Shown piece by piece: positions 1-37,694 of a DNA stretch of 54,909 nucleotides (position 1 is its first letter; the number at the start of each line of letters is the position of its first letter). The stretch is from Flavobacteriaceae bacterium (GTDB taxonomy: Bacteria > Bacteroidota > Bacteroidia > Flavobacteriales > Flavobacteriaceae). Position numbers and translations under genes: made by a program. The notes under the pieces are model-generated. The model made no database searches, was not told the DNA's origin, and worked only from the letters and a program-made list of their open reading frames with translations. Where the stretch lies: NCBI GenBank assembly GCA_020627885.1, contig JAHDGB010000001.1, forward strand, positions 1 through 54,909, written 5' to 3'.

Positions 1-3000
1 GCACAACTACGTACTCCCATTCAGTTTCTCCATTATTTGCTGTCCATGATATATCAGCACTTGTATCTGTTATGTTAGTAGCTGTAATTCCACTTGGTGG
101 TGCACAAGTTTCAGCTGCTGAACATGATCTGACATTAATTTGGTCTATTGCTATGTCTCCAGTAATATTAGTACCATCGCCACCATAAGCAAACTCTATA
201 TATATAGCTTCACCTAAATACGCATCTAAATTTACTCCCACTGCAGCCCACTCATCTGCATCTACACCTTGCAATTGTCCTTCCCACGAAAACACGTTTG
301 TAAACGGTCCTGTTGCAGAAGTAGACACACCAATATTTAAAGTTCCTGTTGCTGCACCATATGCATGCAAATAAAAAGATAATTCTGCACTATCTATATT
401 TTCAGAGAAATCGATAACTGGTGTAATAGCAGATGCTATATTTGTTTGGTTATTAGATGCCTCATATTCTAAATGCACTCCTGGGTTTCCATCCCATGAG
501 TTTAATGGCCCTGTATTTGGTGAGTTATCATTTGGATTTGTAATTCTCCAATTCCCTGTTGTAATATGACCGTTAAATCCAGTACCTGTCCAACCGGTTG
601 GATCTGTGTTTTCAGTAGTTCCAAAAGTTTCTATAAATACAACTGCTTCTGTTCCGTTAGAACCACAATTAACGCCAACTGGCTCTGCCGGAGGCAGTTT
701 TAAAGTTGTAAAAGATATTGGCCCTACCCAATTACTAAATCCGCCATTTAAACAATTAGCTCTTACATAGACTTCATATTCTGTTGAAGGATTCAATCCT
801 GTTACACTTGTATTAGTTGCTGTAACTGCTGTACCAGAACTTGTCGGTATCCCAGTCCCTATTGGTTGAACAACATATTCCCAATTCGATTCACTGCCAC
901 CTGCATTCCATGAAACATCAGCACTTACGGCAATAATATTAGATGCAGATAAGTTTGTAGGGGCTAAACAAAAATCGCCACAAGATTCGATCTTAATAGC
1001 ATCGATAGCAATATCTCCTGTACTAGCTGTCCCGTTTCCACTATAAGAAAATTCAATAAAAATTGTTTGCCCTATGTAACTGTCTAAATTTACTCCAACA
1101 GATACCCAATCTTCTTCTTCACTAGTCTGTAAATTTCCTGTCCATGAATAAGCTGTTGTAAATGGTCCACTAGCAGAAGTAGAAACACCTATATTTAATG
1201 TCCCAATAGCTGGGCCAAAAGCATGCATATAGAATGACAACTCAGCGCCATCTGCTGCGTTAGATAAATTTATTGCTGGCGTTATGGCAGACGCAACATT
1301 AGTTGAGCTTCCAGATGATTCATATTCTAAATGCACACCTTCATTACCATCCCATGTATTTAATGGTCCTGTTCCTGTTGTGTTTGCTCCTGGTTTTGTA
1401 ATTTGCCAATTTCCATTAGCTGCATTACCATTAAATCCTGTCCCTGTCCAACCTGAAGGCGCTACGTTTTGAGTAATCCCAAAACCTTCTTCAAAAGCTA
1501 TTGATGCGCTTCCAGTAGAACAAGTAACTCCTACTGGAACTGGTGGAGGGCCTAAAGTTGTAAACGTTATTGGTCCCGCCCATTCACTAAATCCATCAGT
1601 CAAACAATTCGCTCTTACATAGACTTCATATTCCGTTGTAGCGTTTAAACCAGTGGTATTCACATTATCTGCAGTTGTAGCTGTTCCTGAACTTGTTGGT
1701 ATCCCTGTTCCTACTGGTTGTATTACATACTCCCAATTAGACTCCCCTGCATTTGAAGTCCACGATACATTTGCGCTATTAATTGTTATATTACTCGCTA
1801 TTATGTTACTTGGAGCAGTACAAGAAACAATACACGATTCTATTTTTATTTGATCTATAGCTATATCTGCTTCAGCATTTGTACCTGTCCCACTATATGA
1901 AAACTCAATATATATTGTTTCCCCAATCTTATTATCTATATTAATTCCTACTGGAACCCATGCCTCTGCGTCTGTTAGTTGTAATTCTCCTGTCCATGCG
2001 TATATTGTATCAAAAGGCCCAGTTTGTGATGAAGACACACCGACATTAAGTGTTCCTATTGAATCCCCAAAAGCATGCATATAAAAAGATAATTCTGCAC
2101 TTCCAGAAGAAGATGTTAAATCAATAGCCGGAGTAATTGCTGAGGCCACATTTGTAGAATTTCCAGATCCTTCATATTCTAAATGCGCTCCAGGGTTAGA
2201 ATCCCACGAATCAGATGGGCCTGTATTTGCGGTATTAGCATTTGAAAGAGTAATTCTCCAATCTCCATTTATTAAATTTCCTTTGAATTCTGTTCCTGTC
2301 CATCCAGCTGGCACTGTATTCTCTGAAAGACCAAATTCTTCAGTAAATATATCTGTTAAAACTCCTGAAGAACAACTAACTCCTACTGGAGCTGGGGGTG
2401 GCATTTTTGCTGTTTTAAAATTCACAGGGCCATGCCACAAACTAAACCCATTAGATTCACAATTTGATCTAACATACACCTCGTAATCTGTATCTGCAGT
2501 TAAAACCGATAAGGTTGCATTTGTTACTGTTGTTGAAGTCCCATTCCCTGTAGGGCTTCCTATTCCTTGTGGCTGAACAATATATTCCCAACTCGTTTCA
2601 GAGCCATTAGACGTCCAGGAAATATCTGCCGTTATGGCTGTTATGTTATTAACTACAATATCGCTAGGGGCTATGCATACATTTCCACAAGCCTCCACTT
2701 TTATATTATCTAAAGCAATATCACCAGTATCTGCTGTACCAGTGGCATTATAAGAAAACTCTATATAAATTGTCTGCCCCATATAGGCATCCAAATCGAT
2801 ACCAACTGGCACCCATGCTTCTGCATCTGATCGTTGTAGTTCTCCATTCCATGTAAATACATTAGTAAAAGTCCCAGTAGACGAAGTAGATACACCAACA
2901 TTTAATGTCCCTATAGCTGTTCCATAGGCATGCATAAAAAATGATAATTCTGCACCATCTACTGCTGATCTCATATCAATAGCTGGTGTAATTGCTTTCG

Positions 3001-3538
3001 CTACAGTTGTTGCATTCCCTGAAGCATCATATTCTAAATGGATTCCATTTGCTGTTCCATCGCTTGAAGTTAATGGTCCTGTATTTGGTGTATTTACACC
3101 TGCTTGAGTAATTGCCCAATTTCCACCATTATTTGTTGTGCCATCAAAACCTGTTCCTGTCCATCCAAAAGGAGCAACCTTTTCTTCATTTCCAAAATTC
3201 TCATCGAATATCACTGTAGATAATCCTGTGGTACAAGTTACCCCAACAGGAGGGTTTGGTGGTGTTCTTGAAGTCGTAAAATTTATTGGCCCAACCCAAT
3301 TACTGTAACCACCAATTAAACAATTAGCTCTTACGTATACTTCGTATGTTGTTTCTGCGGTTAACCCCGTTGAATTATATGACGTTACTGTAGTTTCATT
3401 CCCTGTAGTAGTTGGTATTCCAGTTCCTGCTGTTTGAACAACGGTTTCCCAAACTGGCTCTGTACCCCCTGCTTCCCAATTAATATCTGCTGAATTATGG
3501 GTTATATTCGAAATTGTAATATTTGTAATGTCTGGACA
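1..3538 (-). repeat. Tandem in-frame coding repeat with a period of 852-864 nt (about 285 aa, one FN3 plus one MAM module). Units start on the minus strand at 3538, 2677, 1822, 970 and 106, and the last is truncated.
   Basis: The Cys codon that opens each FN3 module is in frame at those five coordinates. An identical 20-mer, ataaaaagataattctgcac, occurs at 371-390 and 2081-2100, with near copies near 1230 and 2935. The string tcatattctaaatgc recurs near 462, 1320 and 2172. Confidence 0.8.
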
Positions 3539-4135
3539 TGTTGGAGGGCCTTGAGATGTAGATGATAAAGTTGGTGAGCTCATACAAAAACCTGCAGCCC
3601 ATTGGTCACCATCATAATAGACAATACGGTATTTAAACCCTGTTAATTGTGAAACACTAAAGTTTTCAATGTTTAAAAAATCAGATTCAAAAGACACGAA
3701 AGATCCATTACAAAAATTAGAACTTGGGGCTCCTGGTGTTGAAGCCTCTATTGCATTACCCCAATTGATCCAAGTATTAGTATCTGCATTCCAATACTGC
3801 AACGCTATACTATCATTTACAGACTCCCATTTAAAAACGTATGTCGATTTAATTATTAAATAATTCTCTCCTGCTGTACGAGCTGAAGATATATCGATAA
3901 CTGGAGACTCTGCTGCTATTTTATCTTTTTCGTCTTGACCAGCTTCATTATCATCATAACCAAAATTAGAACCTGTTGTTGGATTGCCAATAAGAATCGC
4001 CGAGTTTGTACTAAATTCTCCTGCAACTGTTAAAGCCCAAGATGTATTTGGCCAATTTGCTGGCTCATTTACTGCCTGTGAAAAAATGTGTTGGTATACG
4101 GAAAATAGAAGTAGGGATAAAACTATCTTTTTCAT
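1..4135 (-). CDS. Large secreted surface protein with its 3' end cut by the window edge. It has a signal peptide, a unique N-terminal domain of about 200 aa, then at least 4.3 tandem [fibronectin type III + MAM] modules.
   Basis: Absent from the supplied ORF track because there is no stop inside the window. Hand translation of the minus strand from ATG 4135..4133 (MKKIVLSLLLFSVYQHIFSQAVNEP...) stays open to position 2, with frame confirmed at 3538, 2677, 1822, 1228, 970, 367, 106 and 4. An FN3-like pattern (C-x-P-x-I..SADISW...EYEVYVRANC..G.S.W.GP..FTT) alternates with a MAM-like pattern (GWTGTGF..W.I....NTGP...DG..G.HLEYE.SG....A.AITPAI....AELSFYMHAFG..IGTLNVGVS....GDIAIDxIKIEsC). Confidence 0.85.
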   Translation of the reverse strand, partial: MKKIVLSLLLFSVYQHIFSQAVNEPANWPNTSWALTVAGEFSTNSAILIGNPTTGSNFGYDDNEAGQDEKDKIAAESPVIDISSARTAGENYLIIKSTYVFKWESVNDSIALQYWNADTNTWINWGNAIEASTPGAPSSNFCNGSFVSFESDFLNIENFSVSQLTGFKYRIVYYDGDQWAAGFCMSSPTLSSTSQGPPTCPDITNITISNITHNSADINWEAGGTEPVWETVVQTAGTGIPTTTGNETTVTSYNSTGLTAETTYEVYVRANCLIGGYSNWVGPINFTTSRTPPNPPVGVTCTTGLSTVIFDENFGNEEKVAPFGWTGTGFDGTTNNGGNWAITQAGVNTPNTGPLTSSDGTANGIHLEYDASGNATTVAKAITPAIDMRSAVDGAELSFFMHAYGTAIGTLNVGVSTSSTGTFTNVFTWNGELQRSDAEAWVPVGIDLDAYMGQTIYIEFSYNATGTADTGDIALDNIKVEACGNVCIAPSDIVVNNITAITADISWTSNGSETSWEYIVQPQGIGSPTGNGTSTTVTNATLSVLTADTDYEVYVRSNCESNGFSLWHGPVNFKTAKMPPPAPVGVSCSSGVLTDIFTEEFGLSENTVPAGWTGTEFKGNLINGDWRITLSNANTANTGPSDSWDSNPGAHLEYEGSGNSTNVASAITPAIDLTSSSGSAELSFYMHAFGDSIGTLNVGVSSSQTGPFDTIYAWTGELQLTDAEAWVPVGINIDNKIGETIYIEFSYSGTGTNAEADIAIDQIKIESCIVSCTAPSNIIASNITINSANVSWTSNAGESNWEYVIQPVGTGIPTSSGTATTADNVNTTGLNATTEYEVYVRANCLTDGFSEWAGPITFTTLGPPPVPVGVTCSTGSASIAFEEGFGITQNVAPSGWTGTGFNGNAANGNWQITKPGANTTGTGPLNTWDGNEGVHLEYESSGSSTNVASAITPAINLSNAADGAELSFYMHAFGPAIGTLNIGVSTSASGPFTTAYSWTGNLQTSEEEDWVSVGVNLDSYIGQTIFIEFSYSGNGTASTGDIAIDAIKIESCGDFCLAPTNLSASNIIAVSADVSWNAGGSESNWEYVVQPIGTGIPTSSGTAVTATNTSVTGLNPSTEYEVYVRANCLNGGFSNWVGPISFTTLKLPPAEPVGVNCGSNGTEAVVFIETFGTTENTDPTGWTGTGFNGHITTGNWRITNPNDNSPNTGPLNSWDGNPGVHLEYEASNNQTNIASAITPVIDFSENIDSAELSFYLHAYGAATGTLNIGVSTSATGPFTNVFSWEGQLQGVDADEWAAVGVNLDAYLGEAIYIEFAYGGDGTNITGDIAIDQINVRSCSAAETCAPPSGITATNITDTSADISWTANNGETEWEYVVV

Positions 4136-4297
4136 TTTTTTTTGGGTTGTTAATCAATTAGGCGACTAAGCTAAATAAAATAATCATTGATAGCCCACTA
4201 ATACCAGTATAATAGACTAAATCATATAAATTCCCGATTAAAAGATTAAAAAAACAAAGAATTGTTCATTACTTGTTGAAAAAAATATTTTTTTTAC

Positions 4298-32465: not shown

Positions 32466-32825
32466 ATGTCTAAAGGAAAAAACAATTCTGATAACGAAAA
32501 TACTATAACAGCTAATAATGCCTCTACAAAGATTGATGCGATAAAGCAACTTATTTTTGGGGAAAATATGCAAGCTTATGATTCTGAGTTCGAATTTGTA
32601 AAAAAAGATTTATTAAATAAAAAGAAAGAACTTGAAGCTTTAATTGAAGAAGTTCGAAGTGAACTCACTCAATCTATAGATAATCTAAGTACAGATATAA
32701 ATATTAGAATTACTGAGCTTGAAGACCATTTTAATGATAAGATCGATACTATAGATAACAAAAAAGCAGATCGTAAATTATTAGGAGAACTCTTTACTAA
32801 ACTAGGAGAGAAGATTAGCCAATAA
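32466..32825 (+). CDS. Small coiled-coil protein, first gene of the GTPase operon
   Basis: 119 aa with heptad-rich sequence (KKELEALIEEVRSELTQSIDNLSTDINIRITELEDHF). The N-terminal motif KIDAIKQLIFGENMQAY is shared with the next gene. Confidence 0.55.
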   Translation: MSKGKNNSDNENTITANNASTKIDAIKQLIFGENMQAYDSEFEFVKKDLLNKKKELEALIEEVRSELTQSIDNLSTDINIRITELEDHFNDKIDTIDNKKADRKLLGELFTKLGEKISQ

Positions 32826-32839
32826 TATATGGTTGTCTT

Positions 32840-33658
32840 ATGAATCAACAAGAAAAATTAGATATTCTCAAAAACATCTTACTTACAGATGAGCGACAAT
32901 ATGCAGAAGAAATATCTAAAAAAATAAAGATTCTAGAAGAAACTATTAATAAACAAAACCAGCTTTCTCAAAAAGTAGATCCTATTATTGATGACAAACT
33001 AGAAGAATTTATAAAAGAAATACCGCAAACTCTAGGCCCTACTATTACTGAAGCCCTTAAGACCGAAATTAAAAACTCTAAAGACGAAGTAGTTGAAGCT
33101 CTATTCCCTATAATAGGGAAAATGATAAAACGCTATGTACAACATGAAGTACAATTACTCTCAGAAAAAATAAATGCTCAACTAAACAATACTTTTTCAT
33201 TTAAATCATTAAAACGGAAAATAAAATCTAAAAAAACAGGAATTAGCGAAGGCGAATTAATTATTCAAGAACTAACAAAACCTTCTATTGAACAATTAAT
33301 GGTCATTAATAAAGGATCTGGTATAATAATTTCTGAATATTCCAAAACAAAAAATATTGATGAAGATATGATTTCTGGCATGTTAACGGCCATTAAAAGT
33401 TTTGCTGAAGATGCTTTTGAAAAAGAAAACATAGAACTTCAATATATAGAATACGAATCTTATCATGTACACCTTCAAAATTTTTCTTCATATTATATTG
33501 CAGTTATTATATCTGGAGCGTATAATGTTCTTTTTAAAGGACAATTAGAAGACAAATTACTTAACTTTGCGCAAAATGTAATTAACAAGAACGATATAAA
33601 AGATCCTTCTAAGTTAAATGAAAAATTAAAATTGTATTTCGAGAATGAAAATATCTAA
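32840..33658 (+). CDS. Coiled-coil protein with a C-terminal Roadblock/LC7- or longin-like domain, the putative partner of the adjacent GTPase
   Basis: 272 aa. Residues ~150-255 (IEQLMVINKGSGIIISEYSK..DEDMISGMLTAIKSFAEDAF...LQYIEYESYHVHLQNFSSYYIAVIISGAYN...) show the beta-beta-alpha-beta-beta-alpha pattern of MglB/Roadblock proteins. Its stop overlaps the GTPase start by 14 nt. Confidence 0.5.
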   Translation: MNQQEKLDILKNILLTDERQYAEEISKKIKILEETINKQNQLSQKVDPIIDDKLEEFIKEIPQTLGPTITEALKTEIKNSKDEVVEALFPIIGKMIKRYVQHEVQLLSEKINAQLNNTFSFKSLKRKIKSKKTGISEGELIIQELTKPSIEQLMVINKGSGIIISEYSKTKNIDEDMISGMLTAIKSFAEDAFEKENIELQYIEYESYHVHLQNFSSYYIAVIISGAYNVLFKGQLEDKLLNFAQNVINKNDIKDPSKLNEKLKLYFENENI

Positions 33659-34142
33659 AAAAGTTGTTTTGATTGGTCATTTTGGTGTTGGGAAATCGTC
33701 CCTTATAAGGCGTTTTGTAGAAAACACTTTCTCAGATGACTATAAAGTTACAATTGGAGTACACATTTTTAAAAAAAGTGTTCCCATTCCTGAAGAAGGA
33801 AAAGATGTTTCTTTAGTAATATGGGATTTAGAAGGTAATGATGATATTAGAGAAACACGATTATCATATTTACTAGGGACTAATGCTTATATCTATGTTT
33901 TCGATGTATCTAGACCAACAACCTATAAAGACATTGACTCGGATATTCTTTATCTTAAAGAAAAATGTCCTACTGCCCCAATAAAAATAGTAGGAAACAA
34001 AGAAGACTTACTAACTAAAAAACAAATAGGCGATTTGAACGAAAAAATCGAATCTTTTATCGATTTTTTTACAAGTGCCAAAACTGGCAATAAAGTTGAC
34101 GAACTTTTCTCTAAATTAGCGCTAGAGCTAATAAATAAGTAG
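33645..34142 (+). CDS. Rab/Ras-like small GTPase
   Basis: 165 aa with G1 GHFGVGKS, switch I/G2 KVTIGVHIF, G3 WDLEGN, G4 GNKEDL and G5 TSAKTG, all in canonical order and spacing. Confidence 0.85.
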   Translation: MKISKKVVLIGHFGVGKSSLIRRFVENTFSDDYKVTIGVHIFKKSVPIPEEGKDVSLVIWDLEGNDDIRETRLSYLLGTNAYIYVFDVSRPTTYKDIDSDILYLKEKCPTAPIKIVGNKEDLLTKKQIGDLNEKIESFIDFFTSAKTGNKVDELFSKLALELINK

Positions 34143-34148
34143 AAAAGA

Positions 34149-35666
34149 ATGCTTGAAACCTATAAAAAACAACATGCAAAAACAATAATTCAATATTTGG
34201 TTGTTGATTTTAATGGACAAATACTAGAAACCGACAATGTTCTATTTGATATTAAAAATGAACAAAACATTACTAATATTAATCCCTTTTTTGAAACACT
34301 TATTCCTTTATTAAAATCTGAAAATGAAGACTATTTTTTTAATTGTATACATCTTCATTTAAATGAAAAATTAATTACAGCAGATATTTCTCTAAAAACG
34401 TTTAACAAAGAAACTTATCCTTTAATAACAATTGTAGATTTAACTTCTCATTATAAACATTATCAAACTACAGCCCAAGTAAGAAATGAGTCTGTAATTA
34501 ACTCTGAAGTACTCGAATTAAAGAATAGTTACTTAAAAGAAAAGGAGGAATTCAAAAATAGGTTTATCGCCAATTTTAGTCATGAATTACGCGATCCAAT
34601 TACTGGGATTATTACTTTTTCAGACATCTTAAAAAATACACAGTTAAATGATGAGCAACTAAATTATCTGCAGATTTTAAAGTCTTCTTCTAATTTTTTA
34701 AAAAAAATGGTCGATGATATTCTTGATATTTCAAGAATAGAAGTAGGAAAATTAGAATTAACGATAAAACCTTTTGATATTAGATCGCTTATACAAGATA
34801 TTAATGCAAATTATTCAATCCGTGCCAAAGAAAAAGGCCTAGAATACTTCTCCAGTATAGATGAAAAATTACCCGCTATTGTAGGAGGTGATGCACTTAG
34901 ATTAAGACAAGTGTTAACAAATTTGTTAGACAACGCAATTAAATTTACAGAAAAAGGAAATATAACATTTAATGTTTCTTTAAATCAAATCCGTGCTCAA
35001 AAAGCAAATGTTCATTTTGAAATTACTGATACTGGTATTGGCATAGCTCCTGATAAACTAGAATCTATTTTCGAAAACTTTACACAAATAAATAATCCAT
35101 TATCATTTAAAGGTGCTGGGCTAGGTTTAGCGATTGTTAAATATTTAGTAGAATTAACTCGCAGTAAAATCTCAGTGAAATCTTCACTAGGAAAGGGTTC
35201 TATATTCTCTACCAATATAAATTTTAAAATAGAGACAAGTAAAAAACCCCATAAAAAAGACAAAACATTAATAAAAGAAATACGATCAGATAAAAAGTTT
35301 AATATTTTACTTGTTGAGGATTCGGAGATTACTCAACTTTCTATTTTGAAAATTTTAGCTAAAAAAGGTCAGTTTTTTTTAGACATCGTCTCTAATGCAA
35401 ATGATGTTATTCCCCGTATAGAAAGCTCGGAATTTGATCTTGTTTTAATGGATATTAAACTACAAGATCAATGGGGAGATGAAATAGCCAAAAAAATAAG
35501 AAAATTACCCGAACGAGAACACAAAAAAGTCCCTATAATAGCTTTAACTGCTAAAGTATTTAGTGAAGACTTAAAAAAATATAAAAAAGCTGGGATTAAT
35601 GATGTTATTAAGAAACCATTTGATGAAATTTCTTTATTAAATACTATAGGTAAATATTTAAAATAA
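34149..35666 (+). CDS. Soluble hybrid sensor histidine kinase (PAS-like N-domain + HisKA + HATPase_c + canonical receiver)
   Basis: 505 aa with no TM segment. It has H-box FSHELRDPITGI, N-box LTNLLDNAIKFT, G boxes DTGIGI and GAGLGLAIVK. The receiver carries LLVEDSE, LVLMDIKL, ALTA and KKP. It starts 6 nt after the GTPase stop. Confidence 0.85.
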   Translation: MLETYKKQHAKTIIQYLVVDFNGQILETDNVLFDIKNEQNITNINPFFETLIPLLKSENEDYFFNCIHLHLNEKLITADISLKTFNKETYPLITIVDLTSHYKHYQTTAQVRNESVINSEVLELKNSYLKEKEEFKNRFIANFSHELRDPITGIITFSDILKNTQLNDEQLNYLQILKSSSNFLKKMVDDILDISRIEVGKLELTIKPFDIRSLIQDINANYSIRAKEKGLEYFSSIDEKLPAIVGGDALRLRQVLTNLLDNAIKFTEKGNITFNVSLNQIRAQKANVHFEITDTGIGIAPDKLESIFENFTQINNPLSFKGAGLGLAIVKYLVELTRSKISVKSSLGKGSIFSTNINFKIETSKKPHKKDKTLIKEIRSDKKFNILLVEDSEITQLSILKILAKKGQFFLDIVSNANDVIPRIESSEFDLVLMDIKLQDQWGDEIAKKIRKLPEREHKKVPIIALTAKVFSEDLKKYKKAGINDVIKKPFDEISLLNTIGKYLK

Positions 35667-35736
35667 AATTTATTTGTTTTTTACGATAAGTGCACAAAAT
35701 TTTTAATGTATATTTCTTGTTCATTTTATCCCTTTT

Positions 35737-37245
35737 ATGCTAGAACATTACAAAAAATCGCAGTTAAACGTTTTTAATCAATTTATTATTATTGATAAAG
35801 AAAAAATTGTAATACAAAATGAATCTTTATTATTCAAAGATGCCATCGGAAAACAGATAAATGCCGTACATCCTTTTTTTGAAACTGTAAATTTCCTTTC
35901 TATAAAAAAAAATGAAGAATTCTATTTTAAATGTGTTAACATCAATTTAAAAAACCAACACCATATTATAGATATTACAATAAAAACTTTTGAAAAAGAT
36001 ACAAACTCACTTATAATAATAGATGATTTAACACAACATTATAATAACCTACAAAAGACAACTCAAATAAGAAATGAAAACTTAATAAATTCGCAACTAT
36101 TAAAATATAAAAATCAAATTCTAAAAGAAAAAGAGCTCTTTAAAAATCAATTTATTAGAAATTTTAGTCATGAAATTAAAATTCCTGTTAATTCAATTAA
36201 CAGAATGTGTTTACTTCTCGAAAATTCAAATTTATCTCAAAATCAATTATACACTTTAAATGTTATTACCAATATTAATAATCAATTAAAGCATATTTTA
36301 AATGATATACTCGACATTTCAAAAATAGAAACTGGTTATTTTAAAATCAGAACCAGTACGTTCAATATTTGTAACATTATAGGTCATATTGAAAGCATGG
36401 CTAAGCAGAAATGTCTTGATAAGCAACTAAAATTTGTATCAAAAATAGATAAAAACTGTCCAAATTTTATAGAAGGAGATCAATTTCGTCTTACACAAAT
36501 ACTAACTAATCTAATAGAGAATGCTATAAAGTTTACTGATTCGGGCACCGTCAAATTAGAAGTTATTGTAAAAAGCAAAACAGAGAATATGGTTATATTA
36601 AACTTTAAAATAAGCGATACAGGAATTGGGATAGAAAAAAAGGAACTTGATGCTATTTTTAATGGTTTTTATCAACTTAAAAACAACAGTATTAAATACC
36701 CTGGAATTGGCTTAGGACTTGCTATTGTTAAATATCTACTAGTAGCCTTAAAAGGAAATATTACTGTAGAAAGCAAATTAAAAGAAGGATCCTTATTTAC
36801 TATTGCTTTACCTTATAAGATATCAAAAAATCAAATTCCTGACAAAAAATTAATTAGAGAGAAAAAACAATCTATAAATGCTCGTAAAATTTTAATAGCA
36901 GATCCATTCTCAAAAGCTAAAACAGAAATTGAAACTATACTTAATAAAAAAGAATACATTTTAAATTTTGTTGAATCTGGAGATGAAGTAATAGAGAGTT
37001 TATATCGCTCTAATTATGATGCGTTAATTATGAACACAAAACTTCCAAAAATGGATGGGATAGAAACTATTCGTTATATAAGACTATCAGAAGAAACCAG
37101 TTTTAAAGACATACCCGTAATTATGGTTTCAGAAAATGCAATTGACGAGAAAGAAGTATGCATAAAAAACAAAGCTAACACTTTCATAAAAAAGCCTTAT
37201 TCTAAAGATTTACTTATTGAAAAAATAAAATCAATAATTACTTAA
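35737..37245 (+). CDS. Paralogous soluble hybrid histidine kinase whose receiver lacks the phospho-acceptor Asp (a pseudo-receiver)
   Basis: 502 aa with the same architecture. The N-terminal domain is alignable with the previous gene (MLExYKK...PFFET...). It has H-box FSHEIKIPVNSI, N-box LTNLIENAIKFT and G boxes DTGIGI, GIGLGLAIVK. The receiver reads DALIMNTKLPKMDG, with Asn433 (AAC 37033-37035) where Asp is expected. Confidence 0.8.
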   Translation: MLEHYKKSQLNVFNQFIIIDKEKIVIQNESLLFKDAIGKQINAVHPFFETVNFLSIKKNEEFYFKCVNINLKNQHHIIDITIKTFEKDTNSLIIIDDLTQHYNNLQKTTQIRNENLINSQLLKYKNQILKEKELFKNQFIRNFSHEIKIPVNSINRMCLLLENSNLSQNQLYTLNVITNINNQLKHILNDILDISKIETGYFKIRTSTFNICNIIGHIESMAKQKCLDKQLKFVSKIDKNCPNFIEGDQFRLTQILTNLIENAIKFTDSGTVKLEVIVKSKTENMVILNFKISDTGIGIEKKELDAIFNGFYQLKNNSIKYPGIGLGLAIVKYLLVALKGNITVESKLKEGSLFTIALPYKISKNQIPDKKLIREKKQSINARKILIADPFSKAKTEIETILNKKEYILNFVESGDEVIESLYRSNYDALIMNTKLPKMDGIETIRYIRLSEETSFKDIPVIMVSENAIDEKEVCIKNKANTFIKKPYSKDLLIEKIKSIIT

Positions 37246-37262: not shown

Positions 37263-37694
37263 TTATTTATTCATATTTTTTATCTCATCAACAAAAGTAT
37301 CTCCATCAACACCATTATGAACCAAATCTAAAGCCTTATCTGTAACATATCTTGCATTCTTAGGGTTAAATCCAAGACCGACACATAAACGTTCTAATAT
37401 ACTTACTTGTTTCTCACCCTCAACTTGATCTACCCATACCATTCTAGCTAAATCATACAAACGCTCTAATCTTCTTTCATAAGAGGATGGTGGATTAATT
37501 GGATGTGATTTATAATTCTTTACTATTTCAGCATAATCTTTCTCACTTATATCTAAGTTTCTAGATAACCGGTCCAAAAATTCACGCTCTTCAGTATTAA
37601 TTACACCATCACTCATAGCCACTCTAACTATAGCTGCAAAATGATCTTTATTGCGTTGTTTAAATCCGCTATCAAATAAATCTGAAAATGACAT
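37263..37694 (-). CDS. TerB-family (tellurite-resistance-like) protein
   Basis: 143 aa. AAIVRVAMSDGVINTEEREFLDRLSRNLDISEKDY is typical of the TerB fold. Confidence 0.6.
   Translation of the reverse strand: MSFSDLFDSGFKQRNKDHFAAIVRVAMSDGVINTEEREFLDRLSRNLDISEKDYAEIVKNYKSHPINPPSSYERRLERLYDLARMVWVDQVEGEKQVSILERLCVGLGFNPKNARYVTDKALDLVHNGVDGDTFVDEIKNMNK

What the first reader, a model, noticed from the sequence alone, without database searches (positions are those of the whole stretch)
32466..37245. Operon coupling a Rab/Ras-like small GTPase, a Roadblock/longin-like protein, coiled-coil proteins and two soluble hybrid histidine kinases: a candidate undescribed G-protein/two-component signalling system
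Seen directly:
- Five co-directional genes are very tightly spaced. The gaps are 14 nt between genes 1 and 2, a 14-nt overlap between 2 and 3, 6 nt between 3 and 4, and 70 nt between 4 and 5.
- Gene 3 has all five G-motifs of a eukaryote-like small GTPase, including a Rab-like TIGV switch I.
- Gene 2 ends in a ~105-aa segment whose predicted strand/helix order matches MglB/Roadblock-LC7 or longin domains.
- Genes 4 and 5 are paralogous kinases without any TM segment. They share a private ~100-aa N-terminal domain (MLExYKK...PFFET...).

Established: Roadblock/MglB proteins are the classical prokaryotic regulators of Ras-like GTPases (MglA/MglB). Streptomyces conservons (cvnA-D) combine a sensor kinase, a Roadblock protein, a DUF742 protein and a small GTPase.

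Inference: this is a bacteroidetal analogue in which the nucleotide state of the GTPase gates a cytoplasmic phosphorelay, or the reverse. The coiled-coil proteins could act as scaffolds. The composition differs from both MglAB and conservons, with no DUF742, no membrane kinase and two hybrid kinases. I know of no characterised system with this composition.
Basis: partly seen in the sequence, partly recalled or inferred. Interest (0 to 1): 0.85.

Follow-up and report, generated by a model that had tools for sequence, protein, structure and literature searches.

The report
Flavobacterial Group 1 Rup GTPase module
This five-gene operon links a Rab-like small GTPase, a longin/roadblock-fold partner and two sensor kinases; it is real and strongly conserved, but the "Group 1 Rup" system was already described by comparative genomics in 2014 and has not been tested experimentally in any paper I could find.

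Summary
Five co-directional genes sit at exactly the stated coordinates and spacings. They encode a helical 119-aa protein, a 272-aa protein, a Ras/Rab-like GTPase, and two soluble paralogous HisKA-HATPase-REC kinases.

Wuichet & Søgaard-Andersen (2014, PMC4316618) defined this cassette as the "Group 1 Rup" system: DUFY, DUFX, Rup, and an output protein with a conserved N-terminal domain. They also proposed the conservon analogy. Their table lists Lacinutrix 5H-3-7-4, whose locus has the same five-gene layout.

What I add:
- The order DUFY-DUFX-Rup-kinase is kept in 77 of 80 Flavobacteriaceae loci. The 14-nt DUFX/Rup overlap is kept in 66 of those 77.
- The DUFX C-terminus is predicted to have a longin/roadblock fold (Foldseek E 2e-5).
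- The kinases' "private" N-domain is a divergent PAS-like fold. It occurs in 311 protein clusters, on kinases and on PP2C phosphatases, and lay directly after a Rup gene in the four distant loci I examined.
- The GTPase lacks the catalytic Gln.
- The second kinase is a recent duplicate whose receiver lacks the phospho-accepting Asp.

The mechanism remains inferred. My best reading is that DUFX/DUFY regulate Rup, and Rup acts on the kinases through the PAS-like domain.

The parts
32466..32825 (+). Gene 1, DUFY: a 119-aa charged helical protein and the first gene of the cassette.
   Evidence: ORF. Only sub-threshold matches to helical or coiled-coil families. Orthologue present directly upstream of DUFX in all 80 loci and in the distant locus L086 (hmmsearch E 1.7e-22). 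Its position corresponds to DUFY in Table S2 of PMC4316618. Periodicity of 3.6 residues is significant; the heptad is not.
32840..33247 (+). Gene 2, DUFX, N-terminal half (residues 1-136): conserved helical region of unknown role, possibly the docking site for DUFY.
   Evidence: AlphaFold2 predicts long helices at low confidence (pLDDT below 50). Many columns are invariant across 66 homologues: P48, P62, G66, P90, I91, G93, K97. Only sub-threshold Pfam noise such as DUF6120.
33248..33658 (+). Gene 2, DUFX, C-terminal domain (residues 137-272): predicted longin/roadblock-fold GTPase platform.
   Evidence: Model order a-b-b-a-b-b-b-a-a with block pLDDT about 56-86. Foldseek hits: AP sigma subunits (E 2.4e-5), Mon1-Ccz1, Ykt6, Sec22b, p14/MP1, LAMTOR, Ego3, dynein LC7. 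The central helix MLTAIKSFAEDAF is almost invariant. The 3' end overlaps gene 3 by 14 nt.
33645..34142 (+). Gene 3, Rup: a 165-aa Rab/Ras-like small GTPase lacking the catalytic Gln.
   Evidence: Pfam Ras 9e-31; Rab1B 3.6e-20. G1-G5 read from the sequence. The G3 motif is WDLEGN. The Q61-equivalent position varies across 78 orthologues (H 31, N 25, Q 15, others 7) and the Ras-G12-equivalent is Phe. The 14-nt overlap with DUFX is kept in 66 of 77 loci.
34149..34541 (+). Gene 4, N-terminal domain plus linker helix (residues 1-131): divergent PAS-like domain specific to Rup-linked output proteins.
   Evidence: AlphaFold2 pLDDT 88.5. All top Foldseek hits are PAS or LOV domains (E 3.5e-4; TM-score normalised to query length up to 0.65). 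No Pfam hit. Q15, C66, D79, Y102, Q110 and N113 are invariant in 85 kinases. Found in 311 representative clusters, N-terminal in all 150 listed.
34149..35666 (+). Gene 4: soluble hybrid histidine kinase (PAS-like, HisKA, HATPase_c, REC) with His145 and receiver Asp435 intact.
   Evidence: Pfam domains. Catalytic residues. No TM segment. An orthologue follows Rup with a median 4-nt gap in 77 loci.
35737..37245 (+). Gene 5: paralogous kinase from a recent tandem duplication. The His box and ATP-binding boxes are intact, but the receiver is degenerate (Asn433 replaces the phospho-Asp; DP replaces the ED pocket).
   Evidence: 36% identity to gene 4. In the scan, a second kinase was seen only in the seven loci closest to the window (L001-L006, L008); L081 and L082 also carry one. 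All 8 gene-5-type sequences have Asn at the phospho-acceptor position. Residue coordinates.

Best explanation
**What it is.** The locus is a flavobacterial copy of the Group 1 Rup signalling module.

**Shown.**
- DUFY (gene 1), DUFX (gene 2), the Rup GTPase (gene 3) and a kinase with a PAS-like N-domain (gene 4) form a tightly packed, vertically inherited operon.
- DUFX and Rup overlap by 14 nt, the arrangement expected for translational coupling.
- Gene 5 is a lineage-specific duplicate of gene 4 with a non-phosphorylatable receiver.

**Inferred mechanism.**
- Rup binds GTP through intact G1-G5 motifs.
- It probably hydrolyses GTP poorly on its own, because it has Asn at the catalytic Gln position and Phe at the Ras-Gly12 position.
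- Its nucleotide state would therefore be set by partners.
- The longin/roadblock domain of DUFX is the GTPase-binding platform. It could act as a GAP, like MglB, or as a GEF, like Mon1-Ccz1 or Ragulator.
- DUFX's helical N-half probably pairs with DUFY.
- Rup in one nucleotide state binds the PAS-like N-domain of the kinases. Through the conserved DLT-Y-Q-x-x-N-E linker helix it changes autophosphorylation at His145.
- Gene 4 then passes phosphate to its own receiver and on to an unidentified Hpt or response regulator.
- Gene 5 signals without an internal acceptor, or modulates gene 4.

Information flow is therefore DUFX/DUFY, then Rup, then a variable output.
For: **Identity of the system.**
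- PMC4316618 text and Table S2 describe the cassette.
- The gene-2 homologue P0005 (72% identical) comes from Lacinutrix 5H-3-7-4.
- Its locus is FBPase > 117 aa > 272 aa > Rup 163 aa > HK 507 > HK 509 < TerB > Mfd. The 163-aa Rup length matches the Table S2 entry.

**Linkage of the genes.**
- All four genes are in order in 77 of 80 loci.
- The DUFX/Rup overlap is exactly -14 nt in 66 of the 77.
- The Rup-kinase gap has a median of 4 nt.

**Fold of DUFX.** AlphaFold2 plus Foldseek give longin and roadblock hits only.

**N-domain as the Rup-specific input.**
- It has a PAS-like fold.
- It sits at the N-terminus in all 150 listed hits, on at least five output architectures: hybrid HK, HK-REC-Hpt, plain HK, HWE kinase and SpoIIE/PP2C phosphatase.
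- In all four distant loci examined it lies directly downstream of a 160-173 aa Ras-family gene. One of these loci (L083) has no DUFX or DUFY nearby.

**Poor intrinsic catalysis.** The Q61-equivalent position is N, H, Q or another residue, and the G12-equivalent is Phe.

**Direction of flow.** A variable output behind a constant Rup and N-domain pair, and LytTR response regulators downstream in L084 and L086, both suggest the kinase is the output.
Against: - No interaction was tested.
- The DUFX model has only moderate confidence (mean pLDDT 60; block pLDDT about 56-86 in the C-domain). No sequence profile links it to Robl_LC7.
- Whether DUFX is a GAP, a GEF or a scaffold is open.
- The receiver phospho-Asp is replaced in 27 of 85 kinases, so a classical phosphorelay is not a universal feature of the module.
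- No Hpt or response regulator appeared among the 25 Pfam families listed for the window's 28 other ORFs of 150 aa or more. Only 25 of 46 families were shown, so this is not exhaustive.
- L043 and L044 keep DUFY and DUFX without an adjacent Rup or kinase, so DUFX and DUFY may have a role independent of Rup.
Confidence: 0.62

Rival explanations
1. Reverse flow. The kinases act upstream. Their PAS-like domain senses a cytoplasmic cue and serves as the GAP for Rup by supplying a Gln in trans. Rup, not the kinase, is the output, as proposed for the conservon GTPase.
For: PMC4316618 raises the trans-Gln idea. Q15 and Q110 are invariant in 85 kinases, and the equivalent residues are kept in distant homologues. 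His45 (81/85) and invariant Cys66 could bind a cofactor or ligand. Rup lacks its own catalytic Gln. No response regulator is encoded in the operon.
Against: The domain fused to the N-domain varies (kinase types, PP2C phosphatase), while Rup stays constant. That pattern is typical of a shared input feeding different outputs. Distant cassettes continue into LytTR response regulators. GAP activity and effector function are not mutually exclusive.
Confidence: 0.22
2. A genuinely undescribed G-protein/two-component system.
For: No Pfam or NCBIfam family covers genes 1 and 2 or the kinase N-domain. Public annotation is misleading ('cell envelope biogenesis protein OmpA'). I found no experimental paper.
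Against: The cassette, its four components, the missing G3 Gln, the N-terminal output domain and the conservon analogy are all in PMC4316618. Flavobacterial members are tabulated there, and orthology to one of them was confirmed.
Confidence: 0.04
3. An MglA/MglB-type polarity or motility switch. The GTPase and its roadblock-like partner would mainly position gliding or secretion machinery, with the kinases as accessories.
For: The partner has a roadblock/longin-fold domain. The host is a Flavobacteriaceae with type IX secretion genes (a PorZ match in the window).
Against: [quoted passage not shown] The GTPase's best relatives are Rabs, not MglA. There is no Robl_LC7 sequence match. The tightest and most widespread linkage is to the signalling output protein, not to motility genes.
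Confidence: 0.08
4. The adjacency is incidental: unrelated genes share an operon without working together.
For: None beyond the lack of direct interaction data.
Against: Order and spacings are kept in 77 of 80 loci across many genera. The -14-nt overlap is kept in 66 of 77. The Rup plus N-domain pairing recurs in unrelated genomic contexts with different outputs.
Confidence: 0.02

Closest known systems
Group 1 Rup system (Wuichet & Søgaard-Andersen 2014, Genome Biol Evol 7:57, PMC4316618)
   Same: It has the same four components in the same order: DUFY helical protein, DUFX, a Rup GTPase with eukaryote-like G motifs but no conserved G3 Gln, and an output protein whose N-terminal region carries invariant Gln. 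The window's cassette is orthologous to the listed Lacinutrix 5H-3-7-4 locus. As in the other listed Bacteroidetes, DUFX has no TM or OmpA extension.
   Different: Nothing essential differs.

Details not in that paper:
- a predicted longin/roadblock fold for DUFX (there called a domain of unknown function);
- a PAS-like fold for the output N-domain;
- the tandem kinase duplicate with a degenerate receiver;
- PP2C, HWE and Hpt-containing outputs.
Actinobacterial conservon (CvnA-D; e.g. Komatsu 2006; PMC13343842)
   Same: It is an operon joining a histidine kinase, a roadblock-type protein, a further accessory protein and a small Ras-superfamily GTPase. It is proposed to work like a G-protein-coupled system.
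   Different: The conservon GTPase is MglA-type (Group 2 MglA), not Rup. CvnA is a membrane HAMP kinase with a C-terminal LPxR motif. CvnC is DUF742. Here the kinases are soluble hybrid kinases with a PAS-like domain, there is no DUF742, and the partner does not match Robl_LC7 by sequence.
MglA/MglB polarity module (Myxococcus, Thermus)
   Same: It is a small GTPase with a roadblock-fold partner that regulates its nucleotide state. The two genes are often adjacent.
   Different: From my own knowledge, MglA has an atypical G3 and an intrinsic Arg finger. MglB matches Pfam Robl_LC7, and there is no linked kinase carrying the Rup-type N-domain. The window's GTPase is Rab-like, with the G3 motif WDLEG.
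Eukaryotic Rab GTPases with longin-domain GEFs (Mon1-Ccz1, TRAPP, DENN) and Rag-Ragulator
   Same: The GTPase's nearest solved relatives are Rab1, Rab7 and Sec4. The partner's best structural matches include Mon1-Ccz1 longin domains, Ragulator roadblock domains and AP sigma subunits.
   Different: There is no C-terminal prenylation Cys (the protein ends ...LALELINK), no catalytic Gln and no membrane-traffic context. The similarity of the partner is at fold level only (8-20% identity).

Membership tests
Group 1 Rup system | Single-domain Ras-superfamily GTPase with eukaryote-like G1-G5 motifs, including the G3 Asp | tested here: met
   Pfam Ras 9e-31. Motifs GHFGVGKS, T36, WDLEG, NKED and SAK read. 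Best PDB hits are Rabs.
Group 1 Rup system | No conserved catalytic Gln after DxxG in G3 | tested here: met
   The window has Asn. Across 78 orthologues the position is H 31, N 25, Q 15 and others 7.
Group 1 Rup system | Adjacent DUFX gene (conserved domain of unknown function, often with TM and OmpA) | tested here: met
   Gene 2 is 72% identical to the Lacinutrix 5H-3-7-4 protein next to the listed Rup. Homologues are often named 'cell envelope biogenesis protein OmpA'. There is no TM or OmpA here, as in the other Bacteroidetes entries.
Group 1 Rup system | Adjacent DUFY gene predicted to be a cytoplasmic coiled-coil protein | tested here: met
   Gene 1 is present upstream of DUFX in all 80 loci and in L086. 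The coiled-coil character itself is only weakly supported.
Group 1 Rup system | Linked signal-output protein (kinase or cyclase/phosphodiesterase) whose N-terminal region has an invariant Gln | tested here: met
   Q15 and Q110 are invariant in 85 kinases. The same domain lies next to Rup in distant loci. I could not see the paper's logo, so I cannot say which Gln it refers to. GGDEF/EAL outputs were not seen in the two length classes of hits (38 proteins) that I scanned.
MglA/MglB module | MglA-type GTPase (G3 without the conserved Asp) | tested here: not met
   The G3 motif is WDLEG and retains the Asp. PMC4316618 states that this Asp is conserved in all GTPases except MglA.
MglA/MglB module | Partner is a Robl_LC7 (PF03259) family member | tested here: not met
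   No Robl_LC7 appeared among the Pfam families listed for gene 2 and its homologues, even at E up to 10. The resemblance is at fold level only.
Actinobacterial conservon | Membrane-bound HAMP histidine kinase (CvnA) and a DUF742 protein (CvnC) | tested here: not met
   No TM segments. No HAMP or DUF742 hit in any of the five proteins.
Longin/Roadblock fold (profilin-like a/b platform) | Five-stranded antiparallel sheet flanked by helices, with structural matches to solved longin or roadblock domains | tested here: met
   The model shows a-b-b-a-b-b-b-a-a. Foldseek probability is 1.0 with E down to 2.4e-5, and TM-score normalised to target length is 0.45-0.68, against longin and roadblock domains only. 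This rests on a prediction of moderate confidence.
PAS domain | PAS fold preceding a coiled-coil linker into the kinase DHp domain; match to a Pfam PAS model | tested here: inconclusive
   The fold matches PAS and LOV domains (E 3.5e-4; TM-score normalised to query length 0.5-0.65), and a D-L-T motif precedes the linker helix. No PAS Pfam model appeared among the families listed for the 69 members. Only one helix lies between strands 2 and 3.
Hybrid histidine kinase | HisKA with phospho-His, HATPase_c, and a receiver with phospho-Asp | tested here: met
   Gene 4 has all of these. Gene 5 has the His box and ATP boxes, but its receiver has Asn433 in place of the Asp and a degenerate acidic pocket. 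Gene 5 is therefore a hybrid kinase in architecture only.

The most novel reading that the evidence does not exclude
DUFX may be a true longin/roadblock GTPase platform. It would bind and regulate the prokaryotic GTPases that are closest to eukaryotic Rab, Ras, Ran and Rho.

The 2014 survey did not recognise DUFX as an MglB- or roadblock-type protein. If this reading is right, the Group 1 Rup GTPases would, like MglA and like eukaryotic Rabs and Rags, work with a longin/roadblock-fold partner.

The pairing of a Rab/Ras-type GTPase with a longin/roadblock regulator would then exist in bacteria as an operon whose two genes overlap by 14 nt. That bears on whether eukaryotes acquired the GTPase and its regulator logic together.

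A second part of this reading concerns the small PAS-like domain. It would be a dedicated Ras-effector domain, reused on kinases and on PP2C phosphatases.
Probability: 0.35. Interest if true: 0.7.

Novelty: already known. Interest (0 to 1): 0.35.

Why it matters
Group 1 Rup GTPases are the bacterial proteins most similar to eukaryotic Rab, Ras, Ran and Rho (PMC4316618). No paper I could find tests any member experimentally.

The module is widespread. The scan found 562 relatives of DUFX among the stretches it checked in species-representative genomes, and the output N-domain occurs in 311 representative protein clusters.

Knowing how a Rab-like switch controls kinases and phosphatases in bacteria would fill a real gap in bacterial signalling. 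It would also inform ideas on the origin of eukaryotic small-GTPase regulation.

The fold assignments made here give concrete, testable interaction hypotheses: longin/roadblock for DUFX and PAS-like for the effector domain. As a discovery, though, the locus itself is not new.

Tried and rejected
- **N-domain homologue search.** Searching the 132-aa kinase N-domain alone with the search for homologous proteins returned a single hit. I recovered homologues through the full-length kinase instead.
- **PDB profile searches.** The DUFX profile gave only noise (dethiobiotin synthetase, E 0.2). The N-domain profile gave nothing.
- **Relaxed Pfam scans.** For DUFX these gave only sub-threshold hits such as DUF6120 on residues 85-128. 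I rejected these as uninformative. A single weak Robl_LC7 hit to one kinase N-domain (E 0.012) was treated as noise, because the fold search returned only PAS domains.
- **Promoter and terminator scan.** It was uninformative: 43 promoter-like sites against 38.9 expected, and no terminators. From my own knowledge, Bacteroidota promoters do not follow the sigma-70 consensus.
- **Coiled-coil test.** The heptad periodicity test was not significant.
- **Defence-system reading.** Rejected. There were no PADLOC matches beyond a weak P-loop hit, and the flanking FBPase, TerB-like and Mfd genes recur at most loci across several genera.
- **Literature searches.** Searches for later work on Rup, for Ras-like GTPases in Flavobacteria, and for locus tags of listed members found nothing relevant.

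Full report
**1. Observation**

- Gene 1: 32466-32825, 119 aa.
- Gene 2: 32840-33658, 272 aa.
- Gene 3: 33645-34142, 165 aa.
- Gene 4: 34149-35666, 505 aa.
- Gene 5: 35737-37245, 502 aa.

All five are on the + strand. The spacings are 14 nt, a 14-nt overlap, 6 nt and 70 nt. An FBPase gene lies upstream on the + strand. A TerB-like gene follows on the - strand, and then mfd on the + strand.

Pfam results:
- Gene 3 matches Ras at E 9e-31.
- Genes 4 and 5 each carry HisKA, HATPase_c and Response_reg.
- Gene 2 has no hit, and gene 1 has only sub-threshold hits to helical families.

NCBIfam agrees. None of the five proteins has a transmembrane-like stretch. Genes 4 and 5 are 36% identical over 494 residues.

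**2. It is a published system**

A literature search led to Wuichet & Søgaard-Andersen 2014 (PMC4316618). That paper splits prokaryotic Ras-superfamily GTPases into the MglA and Rup families. It describes "Group 1 Rup" neighbourhoods made of four conserved genes:
- a predicted coiled-coil protein (DUFY);
- the Rup GTPase, which lacks the conserved G3 glutamine;
- a signal-output protein (a histidine kinase, or a GGDEF/EAL protein) whose N-terminal region has an invariant glutamine.

The authors explicitly hypothesise a signalling complex analogous to the actinobacterial conservon.

Their Table S2 lists six Flavobacteriia with the order DUFY > DUFX > Rup. One is Lacinutrix 5H-3-7-4 (Lacal_0783; Rup of 163 aa).
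- Gene 2's homologue P0005 comes from that genome and is 72% identical.
- Its locus reads FBPase > 117 aa > 272 aa > 163-aa Ras-family protein > 507-aa kinase > 509-aa kinase < TerB-like > Mfd.
- This is the same five-gene layout and the same flanks as the window.

The frequent public name "cell envelope biogenesis protein OmpA" for proteins that have no OmpA domain probably reflects annotation transfer from OmpA-fused DUFX proteins in other phyla.

**3. Membership features tested here**

- The window's Rup has GHFGVGKS, T36, WDLEGN, NKED and SAK.
- Asn65 aligns with the catalytic Gln67 of Rab1B.
- Across 78 orthologues this position is H, N, Q or another residue.
- Phe occupies the Ras-Gly12 position.
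- In 85 kinase sequences the N-domain has invariant Q15, C66, D79, Y102, Q110 and N113, plus a nearly invariant HPFF motif.

All defining features of a Group 1 Rup module are therefore met.

By contrast, the defining features of the other two candidate families are not met.
- MglA/MglB: the G3 motif would lack the Asp, and the partner would match Robl_LC7. Neither holds.
- Conservon: there would be a membrane HAMP kinase and a DUF742 protein. Neither is present.

**4. Conservation**

A scan of species-representative genomes with the gene-2 profile found 562 relatives among the stretches it checked. I examined the best 80 loci, all Flavobacteriaceae: Lacinutrix, Bizionia, Olleya, Algibacter, Tamlana, Aquimarina and others.
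- tblastn plus ORF calling shows DUFY-DUFX-Rup-kinase in order in 77 of 80 loci.
- The DUFX/Rup overlap is exactly 14 nt in 66 of the 77.
- The Rup-kinase gap has a median of 4 nt.
- In this scan the second kinase appeared only in the seven loci closest to the window (L001-L006 and L008), so it is a recent tandem duplication. The Lacinutrix 5H-3-7-4 locus also has it.
- FBPase, the TerB-like gene and Mfd are syntenic within the family but absent from distant loci. They are neighbours, not parts of the system.

**5. New structural inferences**

*DUFX.* An AlphaFold2 model built from 66 homologues has low-confidence long helices for residues 1-135. Residues 137-268 form a better-defined domain (block pLDDT about 56-86) with the order a-b-b-a-b-b-b-a-a. 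Foldseek against the PDB returns only longin and roadblock domains:
- AP-1 and AP-2 sigma subunits (E 2.4e-5);
- Mon1-Ccz1, Ykt6, Sec22b and COPI zeta;
- p14/MP1, LAMTOR, Ego3 and axonemal LC7.

No sequence profile supports it.

*Kinase N-domain.* A model of residues 1-132 has pLDDT 88.5. It matches only PAS and LOV domains, with E from 3.5e-4 and TM-score normalised to query length up to 0.65. A D-L-T motif is followed by a long helix leading into the HisKA domain. This is a reduced PAS-like sensor or adaptor domain that Pfam models do not detect.

**6. The N-domain travels with Rup**

A profile search of 1.84 billion representative proteins found 311 hits. In all 150 listed hits the domain is at the N-terminus. 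The fused outputs are:
- HisKA-HATPase-REC;
- the same plus Hpt;
- plain HisKA kinases;
- an HWE/HisKA_2 kinase;
- SpoIIE/PP2C phosphatases.

In all four distant contexts examined, the gene directly upstream is a 160-173 aa Ras-family GTPase.
- L084 and L086 also have clear DUFX homologues (E 1e-88), and L086 has DUFY. Both continue into LytTR response regulators.
- L083 pairs Rup with an N-domain-PP2C protein and has no DUFX or DUFY nearby.

A constant Rup and N-domain pair with varied outputs is the strongest evidence here that Rup acts through this domain. It also favours the direction Rup to output.

**7. Details of the two kinases**

- Gene 4 keeps His145, the N, G1 and G2 boxes, and receiver Asp435.
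- Gene 5 keeps the His box and ATP boxes, but has Asn433 in place of the receiver Asp and DP in place of the ED pocket.
- All eight gene-5-type sequences share the Asn, and two of them have also lost the His.
- Nineteen single-copy kinases, from loci titled Algibacter, Tamlana, Hyunsoonleella and others, have S, A, T or K at the phospho-Asp position.
- A classical intramolecular phosphorelay is therefore not a conserved property of the module.
- No response regulator or Hpt gene appeared among the 25 Pfam families listed for the window's 28 other ORFs of 150 aa or more. Only 25 of 46 families were shown, so this is not exhaustive.

**8. Mechanism (inferred)**

- Rup binds GTP but probably hydrolyses it poorly by itself.
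- DUFX, perhaps paired with DUFY through its helical half, is the longin/roadblock platform that sets Rup's nucleotide state.
- Rup in one state engages the PAS-like domain and, through the conserved linker helix, modulates kinase activity.
- Gene 5 is a diverged second output or a modulator.
- The main rival is the reverse flow. There the N-domain would supply a Gln in trans as a GAP, which is the 2014 authors' speculation, and Rup would be the output.

I could not run complex prediction or any experiment, so these steps remain hypotheses.

**9. Verdict**

The system is already described and named, though I found no experimental characterisation of it. The increments from this work are:
- fold assignments for DUFX and for the output N-domain;
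- a wider repertoire of outputs;
- the degenerate receiver of the duplicated kinase.

Interest is moderate to low as a discovery. It would be higher if the longin/roadblock-Rup partnership were verified.

Noticed in passing
window 37033-37035 (gene 5 residue 433); also L001-L006, L008: The receiver domain of the duplicated kinase has Asn instead of the phospho-accepting Asp, and a degenerate acidic pocket, in all eight gene-5-type sequences. In L005 and L006 the His-box His is also replaced (by S and N). The duplicate seems to be drifting towards a pseudo-receiver or pseudokinase.
   Followed up: partly
L014, L020, L022-L036, L041, L067 (kinase receiver domains): Nineteen single-copy Rup-linked kinases, from loci titled Algibacter, Tamlana, Hyunsoonleella and others, carry S, A, T or K at the receiver phospho-Asp position while keeping the His box. 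Overall only 58 of 85 kinases keep the Asp.
   Followed up: partly
L043 8001-8801 and L044 7956-8783: Two Flavobacteriaceae MAG contigs keep intact DUFY and DUFX genes but have no Rup or kinase after them. In L044 the TerB-like gene follows DUFX directly. Either the GTPase and kinase were deleted, or they lie elsewhere in those genomes.
   Followed up: partly
L067 8911-9706 and 9910-11924: This locus has a fragmentary extra Rup (109-aa ORF) and N-domain fragments (103- and 65-aa ORFs), followed by an intact Rup-kinase pair. It looks like a decayed tandem duplication of the Rup-kinase unit.
   Followed up: no
L083 5470-7248: A 173-aa Ras-family GTPase is followed after 9 nt by a protein joining the same PAS-like N-domain to a SpoIIE/PP2C phosphatase. 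No DUFX or DUFY lies nearby. This is a two-gene Rup-phosphatase variant that is not among the output types (cyclase/phosphodiesterase or kinase) named in the text I read of the 2014 paper.
   Followed up: partly
L084 6928-7629 and L086 6170-8904: In two distant Rup cassettes the kinase is followed by REC-LytTR response regulators. In L086 there are also a stand-alone REC protein and a REC-PAS protein. This suggests a transcriptional output that the window's operon lacks.
   Followed up: no
window 37263-37694 (- strand): A 143-aa TerB-like protein (Pfam TerB, E 2e-5) converges on gene 5 with a 17-nt gap. It holds this position at most of the Flavobacteriaceae loci examined but is absent from distant Rup loci. 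Its function is unknown.
   Followed up: partly
window 2-4153 (- strand): An open frame of at least 1384 aa runs off the window start. It carries four MAM and four fibronectin type III matches. Its GC content is about 0.39, against about 0.30 for the rest of the window. It is probably a large surface or secreted protein.
   Followed up: partly
window 32840-33658 and homologues P0004, P0015-P0017 and others: Many database entries name the flavobacterial DUFX orthologues 'cell envelope biogenesis protein OmpA', although they have no OmpA domain and no TM segment. One entry calls its orthologue 'roadblock/LC7 domain-containing protein'. The public annotation is inconsistent.
   Followed up: yes
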